A DNA stretch of 31,860 nucleotides, taken from IMG/VR virus record IMGVR_UViG_2778261226_000007; one strand, written 5' to 3'. This DNA comes from a virus (taxonomy: Duplodnaviria > Heunggongvirae > Uroviricota > Caudoviricetes). This document shows positions 23,223-23,503 of the stretch, one piece after another. Within the stretch, counting starts at the first letter, position 1, and each line of letters starts with the position of its first letter. The position numbers were made by a program, and so were the translations under genes. The notes below the pieces were generated by a model. The model was not told the DNA's origin and ran no database searches. It was given only the letters and a program-made list of their open reading frames with translations.

Positions 23223-23282
23223 GGTGACAGCCCCTATGTTGAATTCAATGAACTCACCACCAAGGCTTTCCACGACCATATA

Positions 23283-23361
23283 GGTGGTGAGACGTACAGG
23301 GGTGGAAATACCGGTCAACATAGAACCCGGCCCAACCGAAGTTGGCCCTGCACGCCCCACC
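23283..23361 (-). ncRNA. c4-like antisense RNA core, module B (79 nt)
   Basis: Closing stem GGTGG/CCACC plus CGTGCAGGG/CCCTGTACG. UUCG hairpin CCAAC-TTCG-GTTGG. A CCGG/CCGG hairpin carries b' (TCTATGTTGA, 23315-23324) in its loop. a' is TTTCCAC (23302-23308). Targets: a2 GTGGAAA 23267-23273; b2 TCAACATAG 23234-23242 next to the SD and the ATG at 23222. Upstream copies: a1 23437-23443, b1 TCAATATAGA 23419-23428. Confidence 0.7.
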
Positions 23362-23392
23362 ATAATTTGGGCGTAACGATGCTCATGACACG

Positions 23393-23414
23393 AAAAAACC
23401 GCATGAGCGCGGTT
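23393..23414 (-). terminator. Hairpin plus T6 between b1 and the c4-like core, module B
   Basis: Minus strand: AACCGC, loop GCTCAT, GCGGTT, followed by TTTT. Confidence 0.6.
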
Positions 23415-23474
23415 GTGCTCTATATTGAATTTCGGGTTTCCACGCCCGGCCCCCGCTTTATAAGGTGCAGAGAC

Positions 23475-23503
23475 AGTGTAACGTCCCAAAAGTGCAGAAT
23501 CAA
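23475..23503 (-). promoter_or_regulatory. Sigma70 promoter of module B
   Basis: Minus strand: TTGATT, 17 nt, TACACT. The same hexamers and spacing appear in module A. Confidence 0.55.

What the first reader, a model, noticed from the sequence alone, without database searches (positions are those of the whole stretch)
23223..23503. Module B: same architecture with every recognition element swapped in a compensatory way
A second copy sits upstream of the canonical Rha gene (ATG at 23222). It has the same promoter hexamers and the same closing stem GGTGG/CCACC. Every recognition element is different yet still mutually complementary. a1 and a2 are GTGGAAA (23437-23443, 23267-23273) against a' TTTCCAC (23302-23308). 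b1 is TCAATATAGA and b2 is TCAACATAG (23419-23428, 23234-23242) against b' TCTATGTTGA (23315-23324), with one G-U pair at b1. The helper hairpin also covaries: CCAAC-UUCG-GUUGG here, GCACC-GAAA-GGUGC in module A, GCGGA-GCGA-UCCGC in module C. Three-way compensatory change is very hard to explain by protein coding. It argues for RNA-RNA recognition with a module-specific address.
Basis: seen in the sequence. Interest (0 to 1): 0.8.

Follow-up and report, generated by a model that had tools for sequence, protein, structure and literature searches.

The report
C4 antisense RNA cassette before Rha
The stretch upstream of the Rha gene is a small-RNA switch of a known kind (the c4 antisense RNA of phage P1, called IsrK in Salmonella), which recognises its own messenger through two short address sequences; this prophage carries three such switches with different addresses.

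Summary
Rfam places C4 antisense RNA (RF01695) at 23280-23367, 23933-24020 and 17960-18045. All three are on the minus strand and each follows an IsrK-type leader. Module B has the layout annotated for phage P1 immI: a1, b1, c4, a2, b2, then the start codon. In 35 related cassettes the a1-a', b1-b' and b2-b' contacts stay 90-98% paired, with compensatory changes at 6 of 7, 7 of 10 and 8 of 10 positions. Across 113 viral and 114 bacterial cassettes each core matches its own flanks and not those of others. b2 overlaps the Shine-Dalgarno of Rha, so the likely action is a translation block on an antirepressor-type gene, with the leader as competitor, as shown for P1 and Gifsy-1. Module C is the positional counterpart of the Gifsy-1 isrK locus. 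RefSeq annotates the cassette only as an "ash family"/Rha protein. In this enterobacterial subfamily that reading frame stays open without codon-type conservation, which is the one less expected point. This is a new member of a known kind, of moderate interest.

The parts
23475..23503 (-). Module B promoter: -35 TTGATT (23503-23498), 17-nt spacer, -10 TACACT (23480-23475). The inferred start of transcription is G23468.
   Evidence: Both hexamers are invariant or nearly so in 35 related cassettes. The Rfam isrK model starts at 23468. The generic promoter scan did not call it, so the promoter is inferred and not shown.
23392..23468 (-). IsrK-type leader, a short RNA when terminated. Hairpin 1 comes first, then hairpin 2 with a1 GUGGAAA (23443-23437) in its loop, then b1 UCAAUAUAGA (23428-23419), then an intrinsic terminator (23414-23397 plus a U run).
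   Evidence: Rfam isrK RF01394 scores 57.7 bits against a threshold of 50. The terminator-like site is found. a1-a' is 98.4% paired with 6 of 7 compensatory pairs, and b1-b' is 90.6% paired with 7 of 10.
23280..23367 (-). C4 antisense RNA core; the predicted mature RNA is 23361-23283 (79 nt). The closing stem is 23362-23346 with 23301-23285, and the helper hairpin is 23345-23332. The b' hairpin has its loop at 23326-23315 (b' 23324-23315). a' UUUCCAC lies in the single-stranded joint at 23308-23302.
   Evidence: Rfam C4 RF01695 scores 82.4 bits. The minimum-energy fold equals the Rfam structure, z = -5.1. The stems are 99-100% paired with compensatory changes. The ends are set by analogy to the P1 c4 RNA annotated at 48343-48419 (GGUGGGG...CCACC).
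23231..23273 (-). Target region in the rha mRNA. It holds a2 GUGGAAA (23273-23267), a conserved GGUGGUG (23261-23255), b2 UCAACAUAG (23242-23234) and the Shine-Dalgarno AGGGG (23235-23231), which overlaps b2.
   Evidence: Read from the sequence. b2-b' is 94% paired with 8 of 10 compensatory pairs. a2 lies about 7 nt after the core, b2 about 31 nt after a2, and the start codon 9-11 nt after b2 in most of 113 cassettes. P1 has the same spacing.
22671..23222 (-). The regulated gene: a Rha-family protein of 183 aa with ATG at 23222-23220.
   Evidence: Pfam Phage_pRha, E = 2e-30. The ATG and the Shine-Dalgarno G's are invariant in alignment A2.
23876..24156 (-). Module A. Its promoter is TTGATT 24156-24151 and TACACT 24133-24128. 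The leader is 24121-24045, with a1 TTGGCGT 24096-24090, b1 24080-24073 and a terminator at 24064-24051. The C4 core is 24020-23933, with b' loop 23979-23968 and a' ACGCCAA 23961-23955. a2 is 23928-23922, b2 GCATACGGA is 23897-23889 and the ATG is 23878-23876. The gene is a 120-aa Rha-like protein ending at 23516.
   Evidence: Rfam C4 80.7 bits and isrK 61.2 bits. Terminator. Elements located. The Pfam Rha match is weak, E = 2e-6, below the family cut-off.
17907..18178 (-). Module C. Its promoter is TTGACC 18178-18173 and TATATT 18154-18149. The leader is 18142-18068, with a1 TTGGCGT 18117-18111 and b1 GAAAAAGG 18103-18096. The C4 core is 18045-17960, with a' ACGCCAA 17988-17982. a2 is 17955-17949, b2 GAAAAAGGA is 17925-17917 and the ATG is 17909-17907. 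The gene is an ORF6N-domain protein that ends at 17421.
   Evidence: Rfam isrK 79.4, C4 74.0 and c4-a1b1 52.2 bits. Sequence. ORF6N from Pfam. A Q antiterminator lies immediately upstream at 18183-18578, the same context as the Gifsy-1 isrK locus.
23223..23534 (-). The 'Ash' reading frame laid over module B. An ATG at 23519 overlaps the stop of the upstream gene (ATGA) and follows GGAGG. The frame is open through promoter, leader, terminator, C4 and a2/b2, and runs in frame into the Rha ATG.
   Evidence: Mechanical ORF 22671-23534. Pfam Phage_ASH PF10554 matches aa 19-115. RefSeq calls the homologues 'ash family protein' or 'Rha family' and lists no RNA feature. The frame is open in 35 of 35 relatives against 12.5 expected. 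There is no third-position excess, 0.70/0.75/0.77.

Best explanation
Module B is a complete c4-type antisense-RNA cassette. It is the kind first described in the immI operon of phages P1 and P7 and later studied in Salmonella prophage Gifsy-1 as isrK-orf45(STnc1160)-anrP. A sigma-70-like promoter (TTGATT-17-TACACT) starts a transcript near 23468. The leader shows a1 in a hairpin loop and b1 just after it, then meets an intrinsic terminator. Transcripts that stop there give a short IsrK-like RNA. Transcripts that read through contain the C4 core, which has a 17-bp closing stem, a helper hairpin, b' in a hairpin loop and a' in the single-stranded joint. By homology with P1, RNase P cuts 5' of G23361 and an RNA of about 79 nt is released. 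Its a' (7 nt) and b' (about 10 nt) pair with a2 and b2 on the mRNA. b2 overlaps the Shine-Dalgarno sequence 8 nt before the Rha ATG, so ribosomes are kept off and the Rha (antirepressor-type) protein is not made. a1 and b1 carry the same address and compete for the same loops, in cis or as the short RNA in trans, which relieves the block. The two-part address differs between cassettes. The three cassettes of this prophage should therefore act mainly on their own targets, B through both parts and A versus C through b only. What is shown here: family membership, structure, covariation of all contacts, overlap of b2 with the ribosome site, and the type of downstream gene. What is inferred from P1, P7 and Gifsy-1: processing, direction of regulation, the competitor role of the leader, and the biological role of Rha.
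For: Rfam C4 scores 82.4 bits and isrK 57.7 bits on module B, and A and C have equivalent hits. The P1 record annotates a1, b1, a 77-nt c4 RNA, a2, b2 and icd with nearly the same spacings, and P1 shares the string CGCCC(G/A)AATTATGGTGGGGCGTG at the 5' end of the core. Covariation in 35 relatives is strong. a1-a' is 98.4% paired (6 of 7 pairs compensatory), b1-b' 90.6% (7 of 10), b2-b' 94% (8 of 10), the helper hairpin 99.4% (4 of 5) and the closing stem 99.8%. Slid controls give about 40%. Cognate against non-cognate complementarity holds in 113 viral cassettes and again in 114 bacterial ones. The geometry is conserved, with the start codon 9-11 nt after b2. Many G-U pairs (for example 35 of 35 at columns 139/160) fit RNA of this strand and not a DNA palindrome. 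Downstream genes of 87 cassettes are Rha (28), Bro-N (11), ORF6N (10), Derepression (7), P22 antirepressor C-terminal domain (5) and AntA (1). Predicted b' duplex energies favour the cognate target: B -12.1 against -5.5 and -8.7, A -16.7 against -7.9 and -5.6, C -10.2 against -4.1 and -4.0 kcal/mol. The mechanism comes from the literature. c4 is cut by RNase P, b' occludes the ribosome site, and 4 differing bases separate P1 from P7 (PMC5320573). IsrK in trans activates anrP translation, and the compensatory mutants G28A/C162U and G31A/C159U restore the wild-type single RNA conformation and lower the raised basal anrP translation (PMC4825925). These positions would fit an a1-a' helix if Gifsy-1 carries the common address UUGGCGU/ACGCCAA at the positions seen in modules A and C; I did not read the Gifsy-1 sequence to confirm this.
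Against: There are no expression or processing data for this locus. The generic promoter scan does not call the promoter. Rha proteins are only assumed to act as antirepressors. a' is identical in modules A and C, so insulation between those two rests on b' alone. The region is also an open reading frame that may be translated. Ribosomes arriving from upstream could therefore override the RNA control.
Confidence: 0.85

Rival explanations
1. Activation-centred reading, as in the Gifsy-1 model. The long transcript folds so that a1/b1 pair in cis with a'/b', which is translationally silent. The short leader RNA acts in trans to refold it and switch on translation of a small ORF that starts at the AUG of the core. 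Ribosomes then run into the downstream gene. The core works as part of the mRNA and not as a released repressor.
For: This was shown experimentally for the Gifsy-1 locus (PMC4825925), which Rfam identifies as isrK plus C4. The core AUG lies 106 nt from the inferred start in module B, against 107 in Gifsy-1. That frame avoids stop codons in the enterobacterial viral set: 6, 42 and 32 distinct stop sites in frames 0, 1 and 2.
Against: It does not explain why a2 and b2 covary with a' and b', nor why b2 sits on the ribosome site of the downstream gene in nearly all cassettes. A processed RNA (STnc1160) exists in Salmonella and in P1. In module B the small ORF has no stop and is fused in frame to Rha, so stop-start coupling as in Gifsy-1 cannot apply. 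The stop avoidance is absent from the bacterial set. The two readings are compatible as two states of one switch.
Confidence: 0.35
2. Termination control as in satellite phage P4. The processed RNA pairs with a1/b1 on the nascent leader, and perhaps with a2/b2, and so promotes premature termination at the leader terminator. The main effect would then be on transcription, not translation.
For: b1 ends about 5 nt before the terminator stem (23419 against 23414). The Gifsy-1 authors raise this possibility by analogy with P4 CI RNA and its seqA/seqC sites.
Against: In Gifsy-1, constitutive STnc1160 expressed together with IsrK made the IsrK-mediated growth arrest stronger, not weaker, contrary to what a termination-factor role would predict. 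The position of b2 on the ribosome site fits a translational block. Nothing here can measure termination.
Confidence: 0.15
3. The region is simply the N-terminal 'Ash' domain of a 287-aa Ash-Rha protein, as annotated, and the complementarities are incidental.
For: Long ORF 22671-23534. Pfam PF10554 match. RefSeq annotation. The frame is open in 35 of 35 relatives, all indels are 3 nt, and the ORF usually starts at an ATGA overlap with the upstream gene.
Against: Column variability shows no third-position excess (0.70/0.75/0.77), whereas the Rha gene gives 0.98/0.86/1.34. The variable positions are exactly the paired RNA elements and change in a compensatory way in three places at once. P1 has a stop codon in that frame inside b', and the frame is not kept open in the bacterial set. 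The Rha ATG and its Shine-Dalgarno are invariant.
Confidence: 0.03
4. The repeats are DNA-level sites: inverted repeats bound by a protein, or recombination sites.
For: a/a' and b/b' are inverted repeats in the DNA, and a 22-nt direct repeat flanks the module.
Against: G-U pairs are frequent and tolerated, and they would be A-C mismatches on the other strand. The contacts sit inside a conserved RNA fold with Rfam hits. Homologous P1 sites are documented RNA targets.
Confidence: 0.02

Closest known systems
c4 antisense RNA of the immI operon of phages P1 and P7 (Rfam RF01695, with c4-a1b1 RF03163)
   Same: Same covariance-model family, same three-helix fold, and same order a1-b1-c4-a2-b2-start codon with nearly the same spacings. 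b2 lies on the ribosome site of the first downstream ORF. An antirepressor-type gene lies downstream. Address changes are compensated between core and targets, which is the basis of P1/P7 heteroimmunity (PMC5320573).
   Different: P1 has one cassette on a plasmid prophage, under a C1 operator, followed by icd and then ant. Here there are three cassettes in a lambdoid prophage, two in tandem between cro and the replication genes, each directly followed by a Rha or ORF6N gene. The leader terminator scores above the isrK threshold here but only 35 bits in P1. In P1 the frame of the core AUG has a stop inside b', whereas here it is open.
isrK-orf45(STnc1160)-anrP locus of Salmonella prophage Gifsy-1 (Hershko-Shalev et al. 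2016, PMC4825925)
   Same: Rfam finds isrK followed by C4 there too, with an ORF6N protein downstream and Q upstream. That is exactly the context of window module C. The short leader RNA ends at an intrinsic terminator, and an AUG sits at the 5' end of the core.
   Different: Modules A and B sit elsewhere in the genome and control Rha-type genes. In Gifsy-1, orf45 ends in an AUGA overlap with anrP. In A and B the equivalent frame is fused in frame to the downstream gene and extends upstream through the promoter. In the sections read the paper compares the locus with P4 CI RNA and does not name the orf45 region as a c4 RNA.
CI RNA immunity of satellite phage P4 (seqA / seqB / seqC)
   Same: A processed RNA from the leader of the operon it controls, with complementary sites both upstream and downstream of itself (as described in PMC4825925).
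   Different: P4 acts by premature transcription termination on replication genes. No P4-specific model hit was seen here, and the mode of action here is unknown.
sar antisense RNA controlling ant of phage P22 (from my own knowledge, not checked here)
   Same: Antisense RNA control of an antirepressor gene in a lambdoid phage.
   Different: sar is transcribed from the opposite strand across the ant start. It has no structured core with two address loops and no upstream decoy sites.

Membership tests
C4 antisense RNA (Rfam RF01695; P1/P7 c4) | Covariance-model score at or above the curated threshold | tested here: met
   82.4 bits (B), 80.7 (A) and 74.0 (C) against a threshold of 45, with full-length model matches. 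P1 itself scores 68.8.
C4 antisense RNA (Rfam RF01695; P1/P7 c4) | Long closing stem, helper hairpin, b' in a hairpin loop, a' in the single-stranded joint | tested here: met
   The minimum-energy fold reproduces it, z = -5.1. The stems are 99-100% paired with compensatory changes in 35 relatives.
C4 antisense RNA (Rfam RF01695; P1/P7 c4) | a' and b' complementary to a2 and b2 just downstream, with b2 at the ribosome site of the next ORF | tested here: met
   Read from the sequence. b2-b' is 94% paired with 8 of 10 compensatory pairs. a2 is a 7-nt perfect match in 108 of 113 cassettes, and the start codon lies 9-11 nt after b2.
C4 antisense RNA (Rfam RF01695; P1/P7 c4) | Second copy of the targets (a1, b1) upstream of the core | tested here: met
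   a1-a' is 98.4% paired and b1-b' 90.6% paired. The c4-a1b1 model reaches its threshold only for module C. In module B the region is covered by the isrK model.
C4 antisense RNA (Rfam RF01695; P1/P7 c4) | Release of an RNA of about 77 nt by RNase P | not testable with these tools
   Only the sequence context agrees. It reads AU|GGUGGG at the 5' end and CACC-ACC(A/U) at the 3' end, as in P1.
C4 antisense RNA (Rfam RF01695; P1/P7 c4) | Controls an antirepressor | tested here: inconclusive
   The downstream gene is Rha family. Across 87 cassettes the downstream genes are Rha, Bro-N, ORF6N, AntA, P22 antirepressor and Derepression families. Antirepressor activity of this Rha was not tested.
IsrK RNA (Rfam RF01394; Gifsy-1) | Covariance-model score at or above threshold, ending in an intrinsic terminator | tested here: met
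   57.7 bits (B), 61.2 (A) and 79.4 (C) against a threshold of 50. Terminator-like hairpins with U runs at 23414-23397 and 24064-24051.
IsrK RNA (Rfam RF01394; Gifsy-1) | Small ORF (orf45) starting at the core AUG and ending in a stop-start overlap with the downstream gene | tested here: not met
   In modules A and B the frame has no stop and is fused in frame to the downstream gene. In module C it stops at about 17939, about 30 nt before the ATG.
IsrK RNA (Rfam RF01394; Gifsy-1) | Hfq binding and trans-activation of the downstream gene | not testable with these tools
   No expression or binding data are available here.
Ash protein family (Pfam PF10554) | Profile match above the curated cut-off | tested here: met
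   35.7 bits (B), 60.8 (A) and 27.7 (C) against a cut-off of 26.
Ash protein family (Pfam PF10554) | Evolves as a protein (third-position excess of variation) | tested here: not met
   0.70/0.75/0.77 across the cassette against 0.98/0.86/1.34 in the Rha gene.

The most novel reading that the evidence does not exclude
In the enterobacterial lambdoid subfamily to which modules A and B belong, the whole RNA cassette (promoter, leader, terminator, C4 core and targets) is overprinted on a reading frame. Selection appears to keep this frame open for ribosome passage and not for its peptide. The frame usually starts in an ATGA overlap with the upstream gene and runs in frame into the antirepressor gene. 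If so, transcripts from the early promoter PR would be translated straight through the cassette. That would melt its terminator and its RNA switch and yield an N-terminally extended Rha. The cassette's own promoter, by contrast, would give the RNA-controlled form seen in the lysogen. This would make it a two-state element, transparent in lytic growth and closed in lysogeny, with three mutually insulated copies per phage.
Probability: 0.3. Interest if true: 0.55.

Novelty: new member of a known kind. Interest (0 to 1): 0.3.

Why it matters
These cassettes gate antirepressor-type genes, and with them probably prophage induction and superinfection immunity. They occur in a large share of E. coli prophages, including Shiga-toxin phages: module-B-like DNA is in 117 phage records and the A+B region matches in 1648 of 5426 complete E. 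coli genomes. Public annotation shows them only as 'ash family', 'antirepressor', 'peptidase' or 'hypothetical' proteins, with no RNA feature in the records inspected. The regulator is therefore invisible to anyone reading those records. The natural repertoire is large: 26 a-addresses and 69 b'-loops in 82 combinations among 113 cassettes, with a and b reassorting. That makes it a ready-made set of mutually insulated RNA regulators, useful for studying how specificity evolves and for design work.

Tried and rejected
1. The generic sigma-70 scan found no promoter in 22600-24300. The promoter assignment therefore rests on conservation and on the Rfam isrK start, and remains inferred.

2. a2-a' pairs could not be counted by column on alignment A2. 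MAFFT splits a2 with a 3-nt gap and the register differs by 1 nt between A-type and B-type rows. I used a position-free search for a2 instead.

3. My column assignment for the leader terminator fits only about half of the rows (63% paired), because two terminator types are offset. It says nothing against the terminator.

4. RNAduplex energies for a' were not discriminating. My a' query included the flanking CC(C), which pairs with the conserved GGUGGUG, so only the b' energies are used.

5. The idea that an open frame through the core is a property of the whole C4 family was rejected. It is not seen in 114 cassettes from bacterial genomes, mostly Pseudomonas (29, 35 and 27 stop sites by frame), nor in P1.

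6. The protein-only and DNA-site readings were rejected (see rivals).

7. The original P1 papers were not available (PMC204598 is not held). The P1 mechanism is cited second-hand from PMC5320573, PMC8198154 and PMC12197685.

8. Literature searches for tandem or multiple c4 cassettes in lambdoid or Stx phages found nothing specific. That is absence in the held library, not proof of novelty.

9. Structure prediction of the 'Ash' peptide was not run, because it would not be decisive.
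Full report
**Observation.**
- a1 is GTGGAAA at 23443-23437 and a2 is GTGGAAA at 23273-23267. Both face a' TTTCCAC at 23308-23302.
- b1 is TCAATATAGA at 23428-23419 and b2 is TCAACATAG at 23242-23234. Both face b' TCTATGTTGA at 23324-23315, with one G-U pair at b1.
- The three helper hairpins and the GGUGG/CCACC closing stem are as described (alignments).
- Two statements need trimming. 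Module C uses other promoter hexamers (TTGACC-18-TATATT). Modules A and C carry the same a element (TTGGCGT/ACGCCAA) and differ only in b.

**What it is.** A search of the window against Rfam at curated thresholds gives seven hits, all on the minus strand.
- C4 antisense RNA (RF01695) lies at 23280-23367 (82.4 bits), 23933-24020 (80.7) and 17960-18045 (74.0).
- An isrK hit (RF01394) lies directly 5' of each, at 23392-23468, 24045-24121 and 18068-18142.
- c4-a1b1 (RF03163) is found at 18103-18155.

The P1 GenBank record annotates the same parts:

| Part | P1 coordinates |
|---|---|
| a1 | 48255-48261 |
| b1 | 48269-48276 |
| c4 RNA (77 nt, GGUGGGG...CCACC) | 48343-48419 |
| a2 | 48423-48429 |
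| b2 | 48452-48459 |
| icd start | 48470 |

The spacings in module B are nearly the same. b1 starts 14 nt after a1 in P1 and 15 nt after it here, and b2 starts 29 nt after a2 in P1 and 31 nt here. There are 10 nt (P1) or 11 nt (here) between the end of b2 and the start codon. P1 and module B also share the string CGCCC(G/A)AATTATGGTGGGGCGTG at the 5' edge of the core. By this analogy the mature RNA of module B would be 23361-23283. The core folds into the Rfam structure at -44.5 kcal/mol, z = -5.1.

**Context.**
- The window is an E. coli lambdoid prophage, 98% identical over 10.5 kb to NZ_OU342919.1.
- On the minus strand the order is as follows:
  - a cro-like gene (25632-25333)
  - an ORF6N-KilAC antirepressor
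  - lar
  - module A with a 120-aa Rha-like gene
  - module B with the 183-aa Rha gene
  - a 74-aa ORF
  - the replication genes
  - rusA
  - Q (18578-18183)
  - module C with an ORF6N gene
  - an AraC-family gene
  - the lysis genes
- In Gifsy-1, Rfam finds isrK at 34316-34240 and C4 at 34214-34131. Q lies upstream and the ORF6N protein STM2616 downstream.
- The region published as orf45/STnc1160 is therefore a C4-family RNA, and window module C is the positional counterpart of that locus.

- I scanned IMG/VR with a structural pattern that leaves the address positions free. I obtained 113 distinct cassettes with 82 address combinations.
- A core's a' has a 7-nt perfect complement in its own downstream flank in 108 of 113 cases and in its own upstream flank in 100 of 113. 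b' gives medians of 9 nt downstream and 7 nt upstream. Against flanks of cassettes with other addresses the means are 4.6-4.75 nt.
- The same scan of one genome per bacterial species gave 114 further cassettes, mostly Pseudomonas with some Erwinia, Serratia, Aeromonas, Xenorhabdus, Enterobacter and others. The result was the same: 7.0, 7.05, 7.5 and 6.6 nt against 4.4-4.7 nt.
- I then counted named pairs on a MAFFT alignment of 35 cassettes of the A/B type. Results are in the table. Sliding the partner by 1-3 columns drops pairing to about 40%.

| Contact | Pairs | With changes on both sides | Cells paired |
|---|---|---|---|
| a1-a' | 7 | 6 | 98.4% |
| b1-b' | 10 | 7 | 90.6% |
| b2-b' | 10 | 8 | 94% |
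| Helper hairpin | 5 | 4 | 99.4% |
| Closing stem | 17 | 4 | 99.8% |

- The many G-U pairs show that the constraint acts on RNA of this strand.
- a and b reassort. For example, the b' of module B occurs elsewhere with the a' of module A.

**Mechanism.**
- b2 overlaps the Shine-Dalgarno sequence in all three modules: AGGGG in B, GGAGG in A and AAGGA in C. The start codon lies 9-11 nt after b2 in most cassettes.
- The genes that follow 87 cassettes are Rha (28), Bro-N (11), ORF6N (10), Derepression family (7), P22 antirepressor C-terminal domain (5), AntA (1), or small proteins without a Pfam match.
- For P1 and P7 the literature states the following (PMC5320573, PMC8198154, PMC12197685):
  - c4 is cut from a longer transcript by RNase P.
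  - b' occludes the ribosome site and a' adds specificity.
  - Four differing bases suffice to separate P1 from P7.
  - The system keeps the antirepressor off.
- For Gifsy-1 the results are these (PMC4825925):
  - The short leader RNA activates translation of the downstream antirepressor-like gene in trans.
  - The compensatory mutants G28A/C162U and G31A/C159U restore the wild-type single RNA conformation and lower the raised basal anrP translation.
  - Those positions would fit the a1-a' helix if Gifsy-1 carries the common address UUGGCGU/ACGCCAA at the positions seen in modules A and C. This is my inference from the numbering; I did not read the Gifsy-1 sequence to check it.
- I therefore read module B as a translation block on Rha by a released C4 RNA, relieved by the a1/b1-bearing leader. 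Whether the RNA also affects termination at the leader terminator (23414-23397), as P4 CI RNA does, cannot be decided here.
- Predicted b' duplex energies favour the cognate targets. A and C share a', so they are insulated by b' alone. In five loci with more than one cassette, none of nine within-phage pairs shares b', and two share a.

**The reading frame.**
- A mechanical ORF of 287 aa (22671-23534) runs through module B in frame with Rha, and a similar one runs through module A. Pfam's Ash family (PF10554) matches the translated cassette. RefSeq annotates homologues as 'ash family protein' or 'Rha family' without any RNA feature.
- Variability by codon position across the cassette is flat (0.70/0.75/0.77). 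The Rha gene shows the usual third-position excess (0.98/0.86/1.34). The conservation that defines 'Ash' is therefore RNA and promoter conservation.
- Even so, the frame is open in 35 of 35 A/B-type cassettes over 292 nt, against 12.5 +/- 2.3 after column shuffling.
- In the viral set, distinct stop triplets in the core fall 6, 42 and 32 by frame. In the 81-nt class they fall 0, 25 and 19. If the sites were independent and equally likely in each frame, that split would have a chance of about 2e-8 (my arithmetic).
- All indels in the alignment are 3 nt apart from one single-base gap just before the ATG in L014. The ORF usually starts at an ATG in an ATGA overlap with the upstream gene. In module B this is GGAGGTGCGCCCATGA at 23530-23516.
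- This property is absent from P1 and from the bacterial set. It belongs to the enterobacterial lambdoid subfamily.
- The Gifsy-1 authors already noted that orf45 is translated and that its nucleotides, not its amino acids, are conserved. The extension of the frame through the promoter and its in-frame fusion to the downstream gene were not described in the sections of that paper I read.

**Comparison and novelty.** The finding is a correct rediscovery, from raw sequence, of a known regulatory RNA family. Module B is a new member with its own address. Three points may go beyond what I found described: three insulated cassettes in one prophage (two in tandem, and up to three in tandem at about 656-bp spacing in L057), the breadth of the address repertoire, and the open frame. 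Searches of the held literature found nothing on these points, but that library is incomplete.

**Verdict.** The kind is known, and interest is moderate to low (0.3). The most novel reading not excluded is the overprinted, translated-through cassette, with probability about 0.3.

Noticed in passing
window 23223-23534, 23879-24175, 17910-18178 (minus strand); L001 3914-4573: Pfam 'Ash protein family' (PF10554) and the RefSeq name 'ash family protein' correspond to the conceptual translation of the isrK-C4-a2b2 RNA cassette. The region shows no codon-type conservation. The protein family may therefore be largely a shadow of an RNA gene.
   Followed up: partly
window 23255-23261 (module B), 23912-23918 (module A); alignment A2 columns 209-215: A conserved GGTGGTG sits between a2 and b2 and is complementary to the 3' strand of the C4 closing stem (CACCACC). 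It could form an alternative helix that places a2 in a loop, or compete with formation of the closing stem in the unprocessed transcript.
   Followed up: no
window 23510-23531 and 22665-22686: A 22-nt direct repeat (GGAGG-Y-GC-R-CCCATGATTCGCC on the minus strand, 91% identical) marks the junction before module B and the junction after the Rha gene. Each contains a Shine-Dalgarno sequence and an ATGA stop-start overlap. It may be the joint at which cassettes are exchanged or duplicated.
   Followed up: partly
L057 9712-11104; also L009, L028, L030: Other viral contigs carry two or three cassettes in tandem at about 656-bp spacing, each with a different address and a gene of about 120 aa. The spacing between modules A and B in the window is 653 bp.
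   Followed up: partly
window 24402-25256 (minus strand): A fourth antirepressor-type gene (ORF6N plus KilAC/ANT domains, 284 aa) lies directly after the cro-like gene and has no C4 cassette in front of it. The prophage thus has four such genes, three of them under RNA control.
   Followed up: no
window 16454-17257 (minus strand): An AraC-family regulator gene lies between the ORF6N gene of module C and the lysis genes. This is the position where lambdoid prophages often carry cargo genes.
   Followed up: no
L243 (Gifsy-1) 34131-34214: The published 'orf45'/STnc1160 region of the Gifsy-1 isrK locus scores 69 bits with the Rfam C4 model. The sections of the 2016 paper that I read discuss it only by analogy to P4 CI RNA.
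   Followed up: yes
window 23912-23918 region against module B a' (23302-23308): In module A the conserved GGTGGTG is followed by GAAG. This creates GTGGAA, a 6-of-7 match to module B's a2, and RNAduplex gave -12.5 kcal/mol for B's a' region on A's target. It is probably incidental, but it is a possible point of cross-talk.
   Followed up: no
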